Shown: piece by piece, positions 3,942 to 29,869 of the stretch
Layout: each line of letters opens with the position of its first letter
How positions within the stretch are numbered: the first letter of the stretch is position 1
Sequence record: MZ501109
From: Escherichia phage TrudiRoth
DNA: 64,000 nucleotides
Direction: 5' to 3' (one strand)
Position numbers and translations under genes: made by a program
Notes under the pieces: generated by a model
The model's input: the letters and a program-made list of their open reading frames with translations, nothing else
Told to the model about the DNA's origin: nothing
Databases searched by the model: none

Positions 3942-4024
3942 ATCTGTAAAATTGTACTTGCAAAATGACCCAAAACAAAGTAGAATATTTCCTAAATCCT
4001 GATAACTACAAAAAGGAAAGCCAA

Positions 4025-6358
4025 ATGAGCCATCGTATCGAAAAAGTAATTAAACGTGACGGTACTGTTCAGGACTTTGCTCCTGAAAAACTCAATGATT
4101 GGGCTGCATGGGCATGTAAAGATACTGACGTAAGTTGGTCTGCCGTAGTTATGGCTGCCCTGAAAAATCTACCCAAAGGTGTTGTAGACTCCGATACACT
4201 CCAAGATGTGTTAATTAAAGCCGCTGAAGGTCTTATCAAAGACAACCCAGCATATGATACTGTAGCAAAGGAATTACGTCTTGCGCAGATGCGTAAACGC
4301 CTATATGATTCTTTTGAACCTCCTTCTCTGCGTTTCTTCCACGATCATATGGTTCGTGTCGGCGCTTGGGAAGACATGAGTGCATGGATTAGCGATGATC
4401 AGTTTGAAGCTCTGAACCAAGTTATTGATCATGATCGTGATCGTTTATTCACCAGTGGTGGACTGAAACAGTTCTTCGACAAGTATTCCCGTCGTAATAT
4501 TGCAACTGGTGAAATTTATGAAACCCCGCAGTTTGCCTACATGGGTATGGCAATGGCGATGTTATCTCAACCTAACTGGACAATTCTCGATGCAATCGAC
4601 CTCTACAACGCAATGTCACTCCATAAAATCAACGTGCCGACTCCACCTCTCGTGGGTCTTAGGAGCAGCGACCGCGGTTTTGCTTCTTGTTGTCTTGTTG
4701 ATAGTACTGATACCCTCGATTCAATCGACACAGCCGAGCACATCGTCTTCAAAATGGTCGCAGCCAGAGCGGGAATCGGGTATCATCTTGAAAGCCGATC
4801 AATTGCTGATCCGGTGCGAAATGGGGCATTCCCGCATTCCGGAAAACTGCCATATTATCGACACATTGACCGATCAGTAAAAGCTAACACTCAGCAAACC
4901 CGTGGTGGTTCTGCTACTGTGTCTTACCCATACTTCGATCCTGAAATCATTCAGTTGATGCAGGTTAAGCAGCAACGTGCTACAGACGAGAATAAAATCG
5001 ATAAGATGGATTACTCTCTGAGCTTTAACAACCTTCTGTTAAAACGTTACCTGAAAAATGAAGATATTACGCTAATGTCCTACTTCTACGCACCAGAAGT
5101 TCATGAAGCGTTTTATGGCGAAGATGAGGCTAAGTTTGAAGAAATCTACGTGGCAGCGGAGAAACGTGTGGCATCTCTTACAAAGATCGACCACGAAGGA
5201 AAAACAATTCCAGCAGCTCCTAGAATCTCTGCAAAAGAAATCCTAGATACTTGGTTACGTATCCGTATGGAAACAGGGCGTATGTATGCTCATCACATTG
5301 GTGAATCTAACCGTCATGGTAACTTCCTTGACCCGATTCGTATGACCAACCTTTGTGTTGAAATTACTCAGCCAACCCGTCCATTCCATCACATTACGGA
5401 GCTGTATAAGACCCAAGATCAGTTAGACGATATGCGTCCAGAGGACATTGGTGAAGTATCTCTGTGTAACTTAGGTGGTGTTGTACTAGGTCGCATGGAA
5501 TCTCTGGCTGAATGGGAGAAAACTTGCTACATCCTTCTGAAATTCGTTGATACAATCATCGAGATTCAGGATTATCCATTCCCAACCATGGAATACACGG
5601 CTAAGAAACGTCGTAACGTTGGTATTGGTCTGATGAACGCAGCAGGTGCAATGGCAGCAGAAGGTTTGGCTTACGAAGGTGTTGAAGCACGTAACTGGAT
5701 TCACCGTGAAGCTGAAAAGCTGTCCTACTTCCTGCACAAAGCCTCTGTACGTCTGGCCAAAGAACAGGGTGCATGTGACTGGTTTAATCGTACTAAGCCT
5801 TCACAAGGAACTCTGGTAATCGACACGTATAAGAAAACTGTTGATGAACTGGTAACTGTAGGTCTAGAAATGGATTGGGAATCTCTACGTGCAGATATCC
5901 TGAAATATGGTATGCGTAACTCCGTTCTGACTGCTCAGATGCCGGGTGAAAGTTCCTCTGTACTGCTAGGTGTTACTAACTCTATTGAACCGCCTCGTAA
6001 GATTGTATCTATCAAGGGTAGTGCAGTGAATAAAGTAATTGCAATTGCTCCAGGTGCAACTGATTGGGATACATTAATGAGCTATAAACTGGCTTATGAT
6101 GTAGATCGTATCGAGTGGATCAAATGGGTAGCAACCATGCAGAAATTCTTCAGTCAGTCTATAAGTACGAATATGTACTATGACTACACCAAGTTTGAGA
6201 ATGAAATTATTCCTGGCCCAGTAGTAGTTCGTGACTTCATGACTGCTGTTAAGTACGGTTGGAAAACTTTCTACTATGCAAACTTTAACACCGAGAATGG
6301 TGGTGGTGCAGGGGAAGAAACTGCTGCTGGATGCGCATCAGGTGGTTGTAACCTGTAA
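4025..6358 (+). CDS. nrdA: ribonucleotide reductase class Ia large subunit
   Basis: ATP-cone-like N-terminus (KRDGTVQDF), NLCVEI active-site loop, C-terminal Cys pair; ORF opens at 3965 but ATG 4025 has RBS AAGGAAA and matches the NrdA N-terminus. Confidence 0.9.
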   Translation: MSHRIEKVIKRDGTVQDFAPEKLNDWAAWACKDTDVSWSAVVMAALKNLPKGVVDSDTLQDVLIKAAEGLIKDNPAYDTVAKELRLAQMRKRLYDSFEPPSLRFFHDHMVRVGAWEDMSAWISDDQFEALNQVIDHDRDRLFTSGGLKQFFDKYSRRNIATGEIYETPQFAYMGMAMAMLSQPNWTILDAIDLYNAMSLHKINVPTPPLVGLRSSDRGFASCCLVDSTDTLDSIDTAEHIVFKMVAARAGIGYHLESRSIADPVRNGAFPHSGKLPYYRHIDRSVKANTQQTRGGSATVSYPYFDPEIIQLMQVKQQRATDENKIDKMDYSLSFNNLLLKRYLKNEDITLMSYFYAPEVHEAFYGEDEAKFEEIYVAAEKRVASLTKIDHEGKTIPAAPRISAKEILDTWLRIRMETGRMYAHHIGESNRHGNFLDPIRMTNLCVEITQPTRPFHHITELYKTQDQLDDMRPEDIGEVSLCNLGGVVLGRMESLAEWEKTCYILLKFVDTIIEIQDYPFPTMEYTAKKRRNVGIGLMNAAGAMAAEGLAYEGVEARNWIHREAEKLSYFLHKASVRLAKEQGACDWFNRTKPSQGTLVIDTYKKTVDELVTVGLEMDWESLRADILKYGMRNSVLTAQMPGESSSVLLGVTNSIEPPRKIVSIKGSAVNKVIAIAPGATDWDTLMSYKLAYDVDRIEWIKWVATMQKFFSQSISTNMYYDYTKFENEIIPGPVVVRDFMTAVKYGWKTFYYANFNTENGGGAGEETAAGCASGGCNL

Positions 6359-16390: not shown

Positions 16391-17276
16391 AGATTCATAA
16401 ATTAGAGAACAGCGAGCCGATTACGCTGAGTGAGTTTAGTGATTCCTACTAGGATAGCTATTCCACTGAATAGAGTCGGTGAGTTTAGAATGATCACCTG
16501 TTAGAGTTCCGAGTCCAGTCCGGTATATCCGGCCAAGTGACTAGAGTAACGAATATAGGTTCGAGACTTCTTGTAAAACTCGGGAGCTGTCCCGAAATCT
16601 CGTAAACTCTTCTCTAGTTTATGTTAGTGGGGTGTCGAACTGACTTATGTGATAACACTGCCGTCCTAGTATAAACGGTAATATCAAACCGTAACTGGTG
16701 GAAGATGCAGGTTCGAATCCTGCGGTCGGAAAGAATCAGATAACTCGGGCTTATACCGGATAAGCATTCGCTGCTGGAGTACATACTATGACGGTTCAGG
16801 AGGTACGCCACCTGATCAGTATTAGGTTAGAATCGAAACAGCTAAACCACGAGGAAACCTGACGGCCTCAACCAAACTCGGAACTCGGGATCACTGCCTA
16901 GTGTGTGCCCCGTTTAACCTGAGACTAGGCATCCAGCTTCGCATCGAAAATCGGAGGTGCGATTCTAACAGACCGCGTGAATATGAGAGTGGGAAACGCT
17001 GACATGAGAGATGTCACTAATGGTGCCCAATAGTACAGGTAATTCGCGATAATTCCTGTTGAGCGGCAGCAGTAGGCTGGGAGTCATGACCTAAGCCTAA
17101 CCGAGTTCTTCACATACGGAGAACATAACCACAAAGTCACCCTGACTTAAACTGGAAGATATTGTCTGACGGAAGGGCTGCAGAGCTTAATCTGAGGGGG
17201 CTGACCCTACCTACCATCGGGTATCTTTAAGAGCTTTTTCGAGAGTTCTTAAAAATACCTAACAAAAGGAATCAAT

Positions 17277-22309: not shown

Positions 22310-22386
22310 GGGGGTGTAATCGAATTGGCATAGGTACTGGACTTAAAATTCAGGTTTTGTGGGTTCGAATCCCACCACCCCTACCA
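22310..22386 (+). tRNA. tRNA with anticodon UAA (Leu?), class I geometry
   Basis: Acceptor GGGGGUG/CACCCCU, anticodon stem CUGGA/UUCAG with loop CUUAAAA, T-arm GUGGG-UUCGAAU-CCCAC, A73, CCA; D-arm poorly paired. Confidence 0.45.
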
Positions 22387-28097: not shown

Positions 28098-28173
28098 GGG
28101 CGAATAGTGTCAGCGGGAGCACACCAGACTTGCAAGTCTGGTAGGGAGGGTTCGAGTCTCTCTTTGTCCACCA
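28098..28173 (+). tRNA. tRNA, isotype unresolved (Ala-UGC or Cys-GCA)
   Basis: Acceptor GGGCGAA/UUUGUCC, D-stem GUGU/ACAC, T-arm GAGGG-UUCGAGU-CUCUC, CCA; perfect anticodon stem CAGAC/GUCUG encloses only 6 nt (UUGCAA). Confidence 0.45.
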
Positions 28174-28188
28174 AATTAAAAAGAATGC

Positions 28189-28265
28189 GCGCGATTGACG
28201 GAATAGGTATACGTGTCAGCCTTAGAAGTTGAATTTTGAGGGTTCGAATCCCTTGTCGCGCACCA
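28189..28265 (+). tRNA. tRNA with anticodon UAG (Leu?), class I geometry
   Basis: Acceptor GCGCGAU/GUCGCGC, anticodon stem UCAGC/GUUGA with loop CUUAGAA, 5-nt variable loop, T-arm GAGGG-UUCGAAU-CCCUU, A73, CCA. Confidence 0.5.
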
Positions 28266-28626: not shown

Positions 28627-28720
28627 GGAAAAGCAAATAGACTGGCGACTAAACCCGATTGGAAATCGGTTGAGTAATAGCAATATTGCCTTATGGGTTC
28701 AACTCCCATCTTTTCCGCCA
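28627..28720 (+). tRNA. tRNA-Ser (anticodon GGA)
   Basis: Acceptor GGAAAAG/CUUUUCC, anticodon loop UUGGAAA, long variable arm with GCAAUAUUGC hairpin, T-arm AUGGG-UUCAACU-CCCAU, G73, CCA. Confidence 0.7.
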
Positions 28721-28735
28721 AATATTGGAGTATAG

Positions 28736-29251
28736 ATGCTAACACAACAAGAATTAAAATCCGTGTTGTTATATAAACCAGATACTGGAGAGTTTTTCTG
28801 GAAATATAGATCTGATTTAGATAGTCAATGGAATAGTAAATATGCTGGAACTAGGGCAGGATTTATTAATGAACTAGGCTATTGGAAGATAACTCTAGGA
28901 AATACTAGCTGGTTAGCACATCGTCTAGCATTCTTATACATGACTGGGGAAATACCAGATCTAATTGACCACAAGGATCAAGATAAGTCCAATACTAAAT
29001 GGGATAACTTACGAATAGCCACTGTATCACAGAATCAGGCTAATGCTAAATTAAGGGTAGATAATACCTCTGGGTACAAAAATGTAACTTGGCATAAGCA
29101 AAGAAATAAGTGGAAAGTAGAAGTACGTAAAGATGGCAAACTCCATTATGGTGGACTTTTTACAGAACTAGATAAAGCTGTAAATAAAGCTAATAATCTT
29201 AGACGTGAGTTATTCGGGGAATTTGCAGTATATGAAGAGTTTATGGGGTAG
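28736..29251 (+). CDS. HNH homing endonuclease with AP2-like domain
   Basis: Shares AHRLAFLYMTGE, DHKDQDK, NLR and GYKNV motifs with 6460, 39902 and 42058. Confidence 0.7.
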   Translation: MLTQQELKSVLLYKPDTGEFFWKYRSDLDSQWNSKYAGTRAGFINELGYWKITLGNTSWLAHRLAFLYMTGEIPDLIDHKDQDKSNTKWDNLRIATVSQNQANAKLRVDNTSGYKNVTWHKQRNKWKVEVRKDGKLHYGGLFTELDKAVNKANNLRRELFGEFAVYEEFMG

Positions 29252-29341
29252 GTCAATCCAACGGCTGGCGCTGGACTCCGACTTGAAATCGGTTGATCGT
29301 AGTGATACGGTGTAAGGGTTCGATCCCCTTACCTACCTCCA
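29247..29341 (+). tRNA. tRNA-Ser (anticodon UGA)
   Basis: Acceptor GGUAGGU/ACCUACC, anticodon loop CUUGAAA, long variable arm, T-arm AAGGG-UUCGAUC-CCCUU, CCA; 5' end overlaps the HNH gene stop. Confidence 0.7.
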
Positions 29342-29361
29342 ATTAACTATAAGGAATCCTT

Positions 29362-29535
29362 ATGAGCAAAACAGCTACTGTAACAATGAAGGATGGTACA
29401 AAATTTAAAGCATGTCTTCATGAAACAGATAATGGATGGAAGGCTTATTTGCCACACCTAGATTCCACTGGGTATGGAATGACCCAACGTGAAGCTATTG
29501 TTGATGCTTTAAATGAGGCTTCCGCTGGTTTATAA
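29362..29535 (+). CDS. small hypothetical protein
   Basis: 57-aa ORF translated by hand; RBS AAGGAA. Confidence 0.35.
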   Translation: MSKTATVTMKDGTKFKACLHETDNGWKAYLPHLDSTGYGMTQREAIVDALNEASAGL

Positions 29536-29794
29536 AAATTCTTGGAATATGCCGGAATTGGTAGACGGGACTGCCGAATAGGTTTACTAGGAACATCCAC
29601 TCCTAGAAATATACCTTAAAAGCGGTTGAGTTAAATGGTATAACTCATGAAGGTTCAAGTCCTTCTATTCCTTGATACATCAATGGCTCAAAGTGTAACG
29701 GTGCTATTTGATGCTCTTGGCAAGACTTCCCCGACATGCGTTCGGGAGTAAGCTGCTAAGACTAGAGTAGAAGAGTTTCAACAAGACAACGATA

Positions 29795-29869
29795 GCTCTT
29801 AAAGCATTGCTGGCGATGCAGTTGCCTTGTAAGCATCTGAACCGGGTTCGATTCCTAGTGGGAGCACCA
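29795..29869 (+). tRNA. tRNA-Thr (anticodon UGU)
   Basis: Acceptor GCUCUUA/UGGGAGC (two G-U pairs), D-stem GCAU/AUGC, anticodon loop CUUGUAA, T-loop UUCGAUU, CCA. Confidence 0.65.

What the first reader, a model, noticed from the sequence alone, without database searches (positions are those of the whole stretch)
29540..29672. Interrupted or over-long tRNA-Leu-like element lacking encoded CCA
A leucine-type D-arm (CCG-GAAUUGGUAGA-CGG, 29552-29568) and a perfect T-arm (GAAGG-UUCAAGU-CCUUC, 29649-29665) are separated by about 80 nt that includes a 7-bp hairpin (UGAGUUA/UAACUCA). The putative acceptor strands GGAAUA/UAUUCC pair, but no CCA follows. Too short for a group I intron, so more likely a degenerate tRNA or a tRNA-derived structured RNA.
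Basis: seen in the sequence. Interest (0 to 1): 0.45.

Follow-up and report, generated by a model that had tools for sequence, protein, structure and literature searches.

The report
Phage T5 "RNA1": conserved non-decoding tRNA mimic
This is the counterpart of phage T5's already-annotated "RNA1", a tRNA-shaped RNA derived from a leucine tRNA whose anticodon loop has been replaced by a conserved 40-nt helical extension. It cannot read codons, and its function has been unknown for decades.

Summary
The window is a T5-like phage. The element (core 29543-29673, + strand) is the ortholog of the GenBank feature "rna1 / RNA1, tRNA-like stable RNA with unknown functions" of phages T5, BF23 and Salmonella phage 5.

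It is neither a decaying tRNA nor an intron-containing tRNA. It occurs in about 490 T5-like phage genomes at 71-99% identity. Across 33 distinct sequences, 95% of proposed pairs are kept, against 38-51% in slid controls. Thirteen pairs show compensatory double changes, spread over the acceptor stem, anticodon stem, class II variable arm and both helices of the insert.

The insert replaces the anticodon loop and ends in an invariant 8-nt loop, ACAUCCAC. No anticodon is conserved: ARAGORN intron mode calls Leu, Phe or Met depending on the phage. No CCA is encoded, whereas all 24 genuine tRNAs of the array encode one.

The elbow-forming D and T loops are invariant. The covariance model's best non-self hits are tRNA-Leu genes.

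Best reading: a non-decoding, tRNA-Leu-derived mimic that is co-transcribed with the tRNAs. It probably acts in trans on a tRNA-recognising factor; that function is inferred, not shown. Already known as a feature; function still open.

The parts
29541..29684 (+). Span equivalent to the GenBank misc_RNA 'rna1 / RNA1, tRNA-like stable RNA with unknown functions' of phage T5 (144 nt)
   Evidence: T5 NC_005859 rna1 is L001:1643-1786, and BF23 carries the same feature. Alignment A1 and the sequence read-out map it to window 29541-29684. The window region is about 93% identical to T5 over 380 nt.
29543..29673 (+). tRNA-like core: position 1 to the 'discriminator' position 73
   Evidence: The covariance model R1 hit spans 29543-29677 at 155.8 bits. 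ARAGORN in intron mode calls 29543-29673. RNAfold gives a cloverleaf.
29543..29549 (+). Acceptor 5' strand (U1 + GGAAUA). It pairs with 29666-29672. Pair 1:72 is a U.U mismatch.
   Evidence: Four of 7 pairs show double compensatory changes: GGAAUA/UAUUCC, GAAGUA/UGCUUC, GGAGUA/UACUCC, AUGCCG/CGGGGU. Pair 1:72 is U.U in 29 of 33 sequences and G.U in the Klebsiella phages.
29552..29568 (+). D arm: 3-bp stem CCG/CGG and an 11-nt loop GAAUUGGUAGA carrying A14, A15, G18, G19 and A21
   Evidence: The arm is nearly invariant in all homologs. The 3-bp stem and large loop are typical of class II tRNA-Leu (established knowledge).
29570..29574 (+). Anticodon-stem 5' strand ACUGC. It pairs with GCGGU at 29622-29626.
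   Evidence: Three of 5 pairs show double compensatory changes (A-U/G-C, G-C/U-A, C-G/G-C) and 98.8% of cells are paired.
29575..29621 (+). 47 nt between the two strands of the anticodon stem, taking the place of the 7-nt anticodon loop. The parts are A-rich junctions, an outer 4-bp stem (29580-29583 with 29613-29616), an internal loop, and an inner 6-bp stem (29587-29592 with 29601-29606).
   Evidence: The outer stem has 2 pairs with double changes (AGGU/ACCU, GGG/CCC, CGAG/CUCG). The inner stem has 3 (CUAGGA/UCCUAG, UAGAGA/UCUCUA, GGGGA/UCCUC, GCAGA/UCUGC). The 3' junction reads CUUAAAA only in the T5 subgroup and CUCAUAAA, CCGAAAAC or GACGG elsewhere.
29593..29600 (+). Apical loop ACAUCCAC of the extension
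   Evidence: The motif GAACAUCC(A)CUC, which is this loop plus its two closing base pairs, is the same in all sequences apart from one A-to-G change in one T5 record. It is kept even in the Pectobacterium phage homolog.
29627..29647 (+). Long (class II) variable arm: 7-bp stem UGAGUUA/UAACUCA with the loop AAUGGUA
   Evidence: 99.6% of cells are paired and one pair shows double changes (A-U/U-A/C-G). The loop AAUGGU(C/A) is almost invariant.
29649..29665 (+). T arm GAAGG-UUCAAGU-CCUUC, carrying G53, U54, U55, C56, A58 and C61
   Evidence: 100% of cells are paired, and the residues that form the tRNA elbow are invariant.
29666..29684 (+). Acceptor 3' strand UAUUCCU (29666-29672), U73, and the trailer GAUACAUCAAU. 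No CCA is present.
   Evidence: All 24 genuine tRNAs in the array end in an encoded CCA and this element does not. The trailer UUGAUA is conserved. The flanks can extend the terminal helix by 2-3 bp in the T5 group and to about 13-15 bp in Klebsiella phages.
29685..29794 (+). Context: homolog of T5 stable RNA 'RNAI', which starts directly after RNA1. It is 3'-truncated in this window.
   Evidence: T5 RNAI is L001:1787-1893 and reads GGCUC...GAGCC-G-CCA. The window loses the last ~25 nt, and tRNA-Thr starts at 29795.
29247..29341 (+). Context: upstream tRNA-Ser(UGA), the T5 tRNAS1 homolog. In some relatives its CCA end lies only 5 nt before RNA1.
   Evidence: Rfam tRNA-Sec model, 38.3 bits; T5 annotation; upstream flank ...CCTCCA-AATCT-T in L035, L024, L010 and L063.

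Best explanation
SHOWN. The element is the ortholog of phage T5 'RNA1'.
- It is a conserved, structured RNA on the + strand, shaped like a class II (leucine-type) tRNA.
- It has an acceptor helix, a D arm, a T arm and a long variable arm, with every nucleotide needed for the tRNA elbow.
- The 7-nt anticodon loop is replaced by a two-helix extension of about 40 nt, capped by an invariant 8-nt loop, ACAUCCAC.
- No anticodon is conserved, no CCA is encoded, and the discriminator is U rather than the A73 that LeuRS needs.
- It therefore cannot decode and is very unlikely to be charged.

INFERRED.
- It arose by duplication of a tRNA-Leu gene.
- It is transcribed within the tRNA operon.
- It is cut out by the tRNA-processing machinery: RNase P at or near U1, and RNase P at the 5' end of the adjacent RNAI defining its 3' precursor end.
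- It folds into an L shape with a greatly lengthened 'anticodon' arm.
- It works in trans as a tRNA mimic. It binds a protein or complex that recognises the tRNA elbow and variable arm, while the invariant apical and variable-arm loops supply specific contacts.
- The likeliest biological role is modulation or titration of a host tRNA-binding factor, possibly a tRNA-targeting defence effector. The partner is unknown.
For: Identity:
- The window is a T5-like phage.
- The homologous stretch is annotated rna1/RNA1 in T5, BF23 and phage 5.

Selection and structure:
- The element is found in 490-491 phage records, against 546 that hold the core gene nrdA. That is about 95% of Salmonella and E. coli T5-like phages.
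- 95.2% of cells are paired, against 38-51% in slid controls. Thirteen pairs show double changes, and the covariation score is 0.299 against 0.132 in shuffles (0 of 500 reach it).
- G.U pairs kept in all sequences (U30.G83) fix the strand as +.

Not decoding:
- ARAGORN in intron mode gives UAA, AAA or CAU, with intron positions 33-37, among homologs.
- All 24 sibling tRNAs encode CCA and this element does not.
- The Rfam tRNA model scores below its cutoff.

Leucine ancestry:
- R1's best non-self hits are tRNA-Leu: 37.2 bits in the window against 18.8 or less for other tRNAs, 38.2 bits in T4, and 40.3 and 32.2 bits in Proteus phage 1.
- A15 and U48 are invariant. A15-U48 is the Levitt pair of E. 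coli tRNA-Leu (my own knowledge).

Acceptor end not used as in a tRNA:
- The flanks extend the terminal helix, strongly so in Klebsiella phages.

Phage-specific:
- There is no copy in 5,426 E. coli genomes or in the sampled bacterial genomes.
Against: - No experiment in the literature I could reach shows the mature ends, the abundance or any phenotype of RNA1. 'Stable RNA' rests only on the GenBank note.
- The trans-acting mimic role is an inference from conservation.
- The host CCA-adding enzyme could in principle add CCA after trimming, as it does for some T4 tRNAs (my own knowledge). Charging is therefore not formally excluded, especially in the Klebsiella clade, where position 73 is A.
- T5n (AY692264) keeps rna1 but is still restricted about 10^4-fold by retron-Eco7 and retron-Eco2. 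Any decoy role is therefore not directed at those two systems, or is not sufficient against them.
- The element is absent from Novosibvirus and from about 5-15% of close relatives, so it is not essential.
Confidence: 0.7

Rival explanations
1. It is an intron-containing tRNA-Leu(UAA). The 40-nt insert is spliced out to give a functional 91-nt class II tRNA-Leu.
For: - ARAGORN in intron mode calls tRNA-Leu(taa) with a 40-nt intron at position 33 in the window, T5 and BF23.
- The 3' junction reads CUUAAAA, a perfect Leu(UAA) loop, in that subgroup.
- One GenBank record annotates a homolog as tRNA-Phe (H137).
Against: - The would-be anticodon loop is not conserved: AAA, CAU or none in other clades, with shifting intron positions.
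- No CCA is encoded, unlike in all 24 sibling tRNAs.
- Pair 1:72 is U.U and position 73 is U, not A73.
- The insert is too short for a group I intron, and Rfam finds no intron or ribozyme family.
- Bacteria have no tRNA splicing endonuclease (established knowledge).
- The phage already has tRNA-Leu(UAA) and tRNA-Leu(UAG).
- The insert has an invariant loop and covarying helices, which points to a function of its own.
Confidence: 0.03
2. It is a decaying tRNA pseudogene with no function, carried along in the tRNA array.
For: It lacks CCA, has a U.U pair at 1:72, and is missed by tRNA finders.
Against: - It is kept in about 490 genomes spanning three or more genera.
- Helices are maintained by 13 compensatory pairs and loops are invariant.
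- Window and Klebsiella-phage copies are about 73% identical, at least as conserved as the core enzyme gene nrdA at about 70%.
Confidence: 0.02
3. It acts only in cis, as a processing signal ('punctuation'). Its tRNA-like top half recruits RNase P and other tRNA-processing enzymes to separate the upstream mRNA or tRNA-Ser from the downstream stable RNAs. The RNA itself has no trans function.
For: - It sits between tRNA-Ser(UGA), with or without a small ORF, and RNAI, whose 5' end abuts the RNA1 trailer.
- The acceptor, T and D arms are the best-conserved tRNA-like parts.
- tRNA-like punctuation is known in mitochondria and in some bacterial operons (established knowledge).
Against: - A processing signal does not need a 40-nt extension with an invariant apical loop, or a long variable arm with an invariant loop.
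- RNA1 is retained where the downstream RNAI is replaced (bux, mar003J3, Klebsiella phages) and where the upstream ORF is absent.
- RNAI has its own acceptor-like end for RNase P.
Confidence: 0.1
4. It is an antisense riboregulator built on a tRNA scaffold. The invariant apical loop ACAUCCAC, presented like an oversized anticodon, base-pairs with a phage or host RNA.
For: - The loop is invariant while its stem covaries.
- Presenting a loop on a rigid arm is how anticodons and many kissing-loop antisense RNAs work (established knowledge).
Against: - The complement GAGTGGATGTTC with up to 2 mismatches occurs 6 times in the window against 3.8 expected. The only exact match is the element itself.
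- Only 64 kb of the phage was searched, and no host RNA, so this is a weak negative.
- Eight nucleotides is short for specific targeting.
Confidence: 0.1
5. It is a dedicated decoy for the defence nucleases that cleave the variable arm of class II tRNA-Tyr and that restrict T5-like phages (retron-Eco7 PtuAB, Septu).
For: - These systems target Demerecviridae and cleave the variable arm of a class II tRNA.
- RNA1 is a class II mimic with a conserved long variable arm.
- The T5 tRNA region is an anti-defence island.
Against: - T5n (AY692264) still carries rna1 (H27) but is restricted about 10^4-fold by retron-Eco7 and retron-Eco2. Only tRNA-Tyr or ORF75 rescued it.
- Model R1 does not pick up the phage tRNA-Tyr as similar.
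Confidence: 0.05

Closest known systems
Phage T5 / BF23 / Salmonella phage 5 'RNA1' (GenBank misc_RNA rna1, locus T5s03: 'tRNA-like stable RNA with unknown functions')
   Same: It is the same gene. It shows about 93% identity to T5 over the surrounding 380 nt and 95% to BF23 over the 151-nt element. It has the same position after tRNA-Ser(UGA) and the small ORF T5.063 and before RNAI, and the same fold.
   Different: Only point differences. For example, the variable-arm stem is GAGUU/AACUC here and GAGAU/AUCUC in T5, a compensatory change. In this window the downstream RNAI is 3'-truncated, and RNAIII and tRNA-His are missing.
Bacterial class II tRNA-Leu
   Same: - A 3-bp D stem with the loop GGAAUYGGUAGAC.
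- A15/U48, G18G19, the T loop UUCRAGU, and a long variable arm.
- tRNA-Leu genes are the best non-self hits of model R1.
   Different: - No 7-nt anticodon loop and no conserved anticodon.
- No encoded CCA; U73 instead of A73; U1.U72.
- A variable arm of 7 bp with a 7-nt loop, which is longer than usual.
- Fails ARAGORN in normal mode and the Rfam cutoff.
Phage T4 stable RNAs C and D (species 1 and 2 RNAs)
   Same: - Small stable RNAs encoded at the end of a phage tRNA cluster.
- rnaC folds with an acceptor-like stem, a genuine T arm, a long variable-like hairpin and one long arm, and has no CCA.
- Function was still unknown in 2022.
   Different: - No detectable homology: R1 scores rnaC at 14.7 bits, like any ordinary tRNA.
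- rnaC lacks the canonical D arm that RNA1 keeps.
- rnaD shows no tRNA-like fold.
Bacterial Y RNA-like YrlA and the tRNA-like domain of tmRNA (tRNA mimics that do not decode)
   Same: They use a tRNA elbow (D/T-loop interaction) as a protein-recognition module, with the anticodon arm replaced by another helix. In the Klebsiella-phage versions the 5' and 3' flanks close the acceptor end into a long helix, as in Y RNAs.
   Different: - No Rfam hit to YrlA, Y RNA or tmRNA even at E <= 10.
- ARAGORN's tmRNA mode finds nothing.
- No tag reading frame.
- I did not see an rsr gene near the element, and I did not screen the window for one.

Membership tests
T5-family RNA1 (GenBank rna1) | Sequence homology to the annotated T5/BF23 rna1 | tested here: met
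   About 93% identity to T5 over the 380-nt region and 95.4% to BF23 over the 151-nt element, with rna1 annotated under the match. R1 scores the window copy at 155.8 bits and T5 at 154.8.
T5-family RNA1 (GenBank rna1) | Synteny: downstream of tRNA-Ser(UGA) and the small ORF, directly upstream of RNAI | tested here: met
   tRNA-Ser(UGA) lies at 29247-29341, the ORF at 29362-29535, the element at 29543-29673, and the RNAI homolog starts at 29685.
T5-family RNA1 (GenBank rna1) | Accumulates as a stable RNA in infected cells | not testable with these tools
   This rests only on the GenBank note. I could not retrieve any primary paper or RNA-seq data.
Canonical tRNA (Rfam RF00005) / tRNA-Leu | Reaches the Rfam tRNA gathering score and is detected by a standard tRNA finder | tested here: not met
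   No hit at gathering threshold. A partial hit of 23.9 bits falls below the cutoff of 29. ARAGORN in normal mode finds nothing.
Canonical tRNA (Rfam RF00005) / tRNA-Leu | A 7-nt anticodon loop with a conserved anticodon | tested here: not met
   47 nt lie between the anticodon-stem strands. Forced 'spliced' anticodons differ among homologs (UAA, AAA, CAU).
Canonical tRNA (Rfam RF00005) / tRNA-Leu | A 3' CCA end, encoded in every tRNA gene of this phage | tested here: not met
   24 of 24 sibling tRNAs encode CCA. The element continues UUGAUAC. Post-transcriptional CCA addition cannot be tested here.
Canonical tRNA (Rfam RF00005) / tRNA-Leu | A73 discriminator and a regular 1:72 pair (A73 is the main E. 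coli LeuRS identity element; established knowledge) | tested here: not met
   U73 and U1.U72 in 29 of 33 sequences. The Klebsiella-phage versions have G1.U72 and A73.
Canonical tRNA (Rfam RF00005) / tRNA-Leu | Elbow-forming tertiary nucleotides (U8, A14, G18, G19, A21, G53, U54, U55, C56, A58, C61) and a class II variable arm | tested here: met
   All are invariant, or nearly so, in alignment A2. The variable arm is 99.6% paired.
Intron-containing tRNA (group I intron in the anticodon loop, as in cyanobacterial tRNA-Leu(UAA)) | A group I catalytic core (about 200 nt or more, P3-P9) and a conserved exon junction | tested here: not met
   The insert is 40 nt. No Rfam intron or ribozyme family hits it. 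The junction is not conserved.
tmRNA | A tRNA-Ala-like domain with a tag reading frame and pseudoknots | tested here: not met
   ARAGORN finds no tmRNA, either in the whole window or in tmRNA-only mode on the element. Rfam has no tmRNA hit.
Bacterial Y RNA / YrlA | Match to the Rfam Y RNA or YrlA models, and linkage to an rsr (Ro60) gene | tested here: not met
   No hit at E <= 10 in 28700-29800. I did not systematically screen the rest of the window for rsr.
T4 rnaC / rnaD | Sequence or structure homology to T4 species 1 or 2 RNA | tested here: not met
   R1 scores rnaC at 14.7 bits, within the range of unrelated tRNAs, and gives no hit on rnaD beyond a 23-nt match at 0.3 bits on the opposite strand. 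The resemblance is architectural only.

The most novel reading that the evidence does not exclude
RNA1 is a dedicated trans-acting tRNA mimic of T5-like phages. It would inhibit or titrate a still unidentified host factor that recognises class II tRNAs. Candidates are a tRNA-targeting immune effector other than retron-Eco7/Eco2, or a tRNA-processing or tRNA-charging enzyme. The invariant apical loop ACAUCCAC and the invariant variable-arm loop would act as specificity determinants. If so, it would be the first phage-encoded non-decoding 'anti-tRNase' RNA, and it would suggest a function for the long-mysterious stable RNAs of phage tRNA clusters (T4 RNAC/RNAD; T5 RNAI, RNAIII and RNA2H).
Probability: 0.2. 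Interest if true: 0.75.

Novelty: already known. Interest (0 to 1): 0.35.

Why it matters
Phage tRNA arrays are now recognised as anti-defence islands: T5 tRNA-Tyr counters retron-Eco7 and T5 tRNA-Lys counters PARIS.

RNA1 sits in that island and is present in about 90% of the T5-like genomes sampled. It is kept by strong structural selection, yet it cannot decode.

Almost no genome annotates it. Nearly all sampled records show no feature or only 'hypothetical protein' under the match, and one calls it tRNA-Phe. No Rfam family matches it.

The covariation-backed model produced here defines exactly which loops to mutate. It could also seed an RNA family for annotation.

If the RNA proves to be a tRNA decoy or regulator, that would explain a class of phage 'stable RNAs' that has lacked a function since the 1970s-80s.

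Tried and rejected
- IMG/VR scan with a gapped D-arm/apical-loop pattern returned nothing. A plain D-arm pattern then worked and gave 24 loci, mostly isolate genomes.
- A loose pattern of apical loop plus T loop gave 94 viral and at least 120 bacterial hits. Filtering with model R1 showed that nearly all were chance. Only four more T5-like loci were real. The bacterial loci held only ordinary tRNAs at 22-46 bits.
- BLAST of the element against 5,426 E. coli genomes found no match. There is therefore no host or prophage copy, but direct comparison with host tRNA-Leu genes was not possible this way.
- Homology to T4 rnaC/rnaD was rejected.
- An antisense target for the apical loop was sought in the window and none was found above chance.
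- Coding potential: only short, unconserved ORFs overlap the element. The 'terminator-like' hit at 29649-29665 is simply the T arm.
- Literature: three full-text searches for T5 stable or tRNA-like RNAs and for a T5 transcriptome found no paper that treats RNA1. Glukhov et al. 2018, on T5 tRNA-region deletion mutants, is not held in the library.
- I considered a kissing interaction between the variable-arm loop (UGG) and the apical loop (CCA). I rejected it because it gives only 3 bp and one natural variant (EK80, CGG) breaks it.
- I considered RNase III excision of the insert. I rejected it because the helices are only 4 and 6 bp.
Full report
**1. What is there**

The window is a T5-like phage (family Demerecviridae). 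A 20-kb stretch around the finding matches phages Shin27, bux and rokbiter at 96-98%. The 400 bases around the finding match T5, BF23 and hundreds of relatives.

The finding lies inside a dense + strand tRNA array running from about 16.6 to 30.7 kb. ARAGORN tRNAs there and Rfam.

- D arm at 29552-29568.
- T arm at 29649-29665.
- A 7-bp hairpin, 29627-29633 pairing with 29641-29647.
- GGAATA at 29544-29549 pairing with TATTCC at 29666-29671.
- No CCA afterwards.

Standard detectors miss the element. ARAGORN in normal mode finds nothing. Rfam finds nothing at gathering threshold. A permissive Rfam scan gives only a partial tRNA match of 23.9 bits against a cutoff of 29.

**2. Anatomy**

RNAfold gives a cloverleaf (z = -2.9). 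Its parts are:
- An acceptor helix of 6 bp plus a U1.U72 mismatch.
- A 3-bp D stem with a large Leu-type loop.
- G26.
- A 5-bp anticodon stem, ACUGC/GCGGU (29570-29574 with 29622-29626).
- A long class II variable arm of 7 bp (29627-29647).
- A canonical T arm.

Where the 7-nt anticodon loop should be, there are 47 nt (29575-29621). They comprise:
- A-rich junctions.
- A 4-bp helix, AGGU/ACCU.
- An internal loop.
- A 6-bp helix, CUAGGA/UCCUAG.
- An 8-nt apical loop, ACAUCCAC (29593-29600).

**3. It is an already-annotated gene**

In T5 (NC_005859, AY543070, AY692264), BF23 (AJ604530) and Salmonella phage 5 (AJ604531), the homologous stretch is annotated as misc_RNA rna1.

Mapped onto the window, this is 29541-29684. 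In T5 it is followed directly by:
- RNAI (107 nt).
- RNAIII (106 nt).
- tRNA-His.

T5 RNAI begins with G right after the RNA1 trailer. It closes as GGCUC...GAGCC-G-CCA, an acceptor-like end. The annotated 3' boundary of RNA1 is therefore simply the 5' processing site of RNAI.

**4. Comparative test**

Occurrence:
- BLAST finds the element in 490-491 phage records at 71% to over 99% identity. They belong to Tequintavirus, Epseptimavirus, Sugarlandvirus and a Pectobacterium phage.
- The core gene nrdA is found in 546 records.
- By first word of the organism name, the RNA1 and nrdA counts are 263 and 272 for Salmonella, 120 and 128 for Escherichia, and about 70 and 83 for Klebsiella.
- Nearly all sampled records leave the element unannotated or lay a 'hypothetical protein' over it. 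One calls it tRNA-Phe.

Covariation:
- I collected 29 and then 33 distinct sequences and counted pairs for the proposed structure.
- On the 33-sequence alignment, 95.2% of cells pair, against 38-51% when the 3' partners are slid.
- Thirteen of 37 pairs have compensatory double changes: 4 in the acceptor helix, 3 in the anticodon stem, 2 in the outer insert helix, 3 in the inner insert helix and 1 in the variable arm.
- The covariation score is 0.299 against 0.132 in shuffles, and 0 of 500 shuffles reach it (for the MAFFT alignment).
- RNAalifold predicts the same helices independently, except that it pairs the D region differently.
- This alignment was fitted to the model, but the MAFFT alignment (A2) gives the same picture.

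Most divergent member:
- Pectobacterium phage DU_PP_V keeps every helix with new base pairs: acceptor GGAGUA/UACUCC, outer insert helix CGAG/CUCG, variable arm GAGCUA/UAGCUC.
- It also keeps the apical loop unchanged.

Invariant positions:
- U8, A14, A15, G18, G19 and A21.
- The T loop: G53, U54, U55, C56, A58 and C61.
- U48.
- The variable-arm loop AAUGGU.
- GAACAUCC-CUC at the apex.

G.U pairs conserved in all sequences place the structure on the + strand. The reverse strand folds less well.

**5. Not a decoding tRNA, not an intron, not a pseudogene**

Forcing ARAGORN to allow an intron gives tRNA-Leu(UAA) with a 40-nt intron for the window, T5 and BF23. The same procedure gives Phe(AAA) or Met(CAU), with the 'intron' at positions 33-37, for the other clades. 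The Pectobacterium version has no anticodon-like junction at all. So the CUUAAAA of the T5 subgroup is a by-product of the A-rich junction.

Further points against a decoding tRNA:
- All 24 genuine tRNAs of the array encode CCA and this element does not.
- Position 73 is U and pair 1:72 is U.U. E. coli LeuRS requires A73 (established knowledge).
- No intron or ribozyme family matches.

The pseudogene reading is excluded by the covariation.

**6. Ancestry**

A covariance model built from the family (R1) finds tRNA-Leu genes as its best non-self hits:
- The phage's own tRNA-Leu(UAG): 37.2 bits, against 18.8 or less for all other tRNAs in the window.
- T4 tRNA-Leu: 38.2 bits, with tRNA-Ser at 33.6.
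- The two tRNA-Leu genes of Proteus phage 1: 40.3 and 32.2 bits.

The element is therefore most simply a diverged duplicate of a tRNA-Leu gene. It is confined to one branch of Demerecviridae:
- Proteus phage 1 (Novosibvirus) has no copy, even with filters off.
- E. coli genomes have none.
- The sampled bacterial contigs have none.

**7. The ends**

The flanks are conserved: UCUU before and UUGAUA after. They can extend the terminal helix. In the T5 group the extension is U.U, U.U, C-G, U-A. In Klebsiella phages the flanks give a 13-15-bp helix that dominates the predicted fold.

Together with the missing CCA, this indicates that the acceptor end is not used as in a tRNA.

The following steps are inferred, not shown:
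- RNase P cleavage at or near U1.
- RNase P cleavage at G29685, the RNAI 5' end.
- Exonucleolytic trimming of the trailer.

**8. Function**

No accessible paper addresses RNA1.

Context from the literature:
- The T5 tRNA-rich region is dispensable in the laboratory and carries anti-defence genes.
- Retron-Eco7 and Septu restrict Demerecviridae by cutting the variable arm of class II tRNA-Tyr.

However, T5n (AY692264) has the 8-kb deletion, still carries rna1, and is still restricted about 10^4-fold by Eco7 and Eco2. RNA1 is therefore not a sufficient counter to those two systems.

Two other ideas were tested:
- An antisense target for the apical loop is not found in the window above chance.
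- A pure processing-signal role does not explain the invariant loops, or the retention of RNA1 where its neighbours differ.

My best-supported mechanism is a non-decoding tRNA mimic. It would be made by the tRNA maturation pathway and would present an intact tRNA elbow, a long variable arm and a lengthened 'anticodon' arm to a tRNA-recognising partner. The partner is unknown.

I give about 0.7 to the overall reading (conserved, non-decoding, trans-acting mimic). I give about 0.2 to the specific idea that the partner is a host defence or tRNA-metabolism factor.

**9. Comparison with known systems**

- The element is a member of the T5 RNA1 family (homology and synteny tests met).
- It works like a tRNA in its top half, but it fails the defining tests for a tRNA: loop, anticodon, CCA, discriminator and model score.
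- It resembles T4 rnaC in design: acceptor-like stem, true T arm, long extra arms, no CCA, and a function still unknown in 2022. Homology to rnaC is not detectable.
- It resembles YrlA and the tRNA-like domain of tmRNA in principle, but it matches neither model.

**10. Verdict**

The feature is already known as T5 RNA1, so novelty is low.

The open function, the near-universal conservation and the location in an anti-defence island give it moderate residual interest.

Noticed in passing
window 29685-29794: The homolog of T5 stable RNA 'RNAI' is 3'-truncated here. T5 RNAI ends ...UUUCUGAGAGCC-G-CCA, an acceptor-like 5-bp terminal stem plus GCCA. In the window the last ~25 nt are replaced by AACAAGACAACGATA, and tRNA-Thr starts at 29795. 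RNAIII, tRNA-His and the following T5 genes are absent.
   Followed up: partly
window 22310-22386 and 28189-28265; also L231:11795-11953: The phage's genuine tRNA-Leu(UAA) and tRNA-Leu(UAG) are only 77 nt including CCA and have a 5-nt variable region. They are class I-like and lack the long variable arm that bacterial tRNA-Leu normally has. The same holds for the two tRNA-Leu genes of Proteus phage 1. This might relate to evasion of nucleases that target the variable arm.
   Followed up: no
window 29247-29341: ARAGORN does not call a tRNA-Ser(UGA) here, the T5 tRNAS1 homolog with an encoded CCA. Rfam sees it only as a sub-threshold tRNA-Sec match (38.3 bits against a cutoff of 47).
   Followed up: partly
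window 28098-28173: ARAGORN reports 'tRNA-??? anticodon (tgca)'. By position this is the homolog of T5 tRNA-Ala(UGC), with an oddly called anticodon loop.
   Followed up: no
window 16660-16731: Rfam calls a borderline tRNA here (29.3 bits against a cutoff of 29) that ARAGORN does not call. It lacks an encoded CCA (the end reads ...GGAAAGAA). It may be another tRNA-like relic or mimic.
   Followed up: no
window 28736-29251: An HNH homing-endonuclease-like ORF (171 aa, motif ...DHKDQDKSNTKWDNLR...) sits between tRNA-Ser(GGA) and tRNA-Ser(UGA), and its 3' end overlaps the start of the latter. T5 has the HNH endonuclease hegC a little further upstream, between tRNA-Leu(UAG) and tRNA-Ser(GGA).
   Followed up: no
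L001:308-479 and L001:1898-2003 (phage T5): T5 annotates two further 'stable RNAs with unknown functions' in the same operon. RNA2H (172 nt) lies behind promoter P13b. RNAIII (106 nt) abuts tRNA-His and folds into a long terminal helix with z = -2.85.
   Followed up: partly
L040:4909-5047, minus strand (phage T4 rnaC): T4 species 1 RNA folds very stably (z = -4.6). It forms an acceptor-like stem, one long arm, a 10-bp variable-like hairpin and a canonical T arm (CCGGG-UUCGAAU-CCCGG), without CCA. This is a design parallel to T5 RNA1.
   Followed up: partly
NC_105512.1, Escherichia phage JLBYU43 (hit H137): This GenBank record annotates the RNA1 homolog as tRNA-Phe. That is probably an artefact of tRNA finders that allow introns.
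   Followed up: partly
window 3965-6358: The nrdA gene is 100% identical to Salmonella phage MET_P1_137_112, but that phage carries the other (Epseptimavirus-type) RNA1 variant. This indicates mosaicism between the replication and tRNA regions.
   Followed up: no
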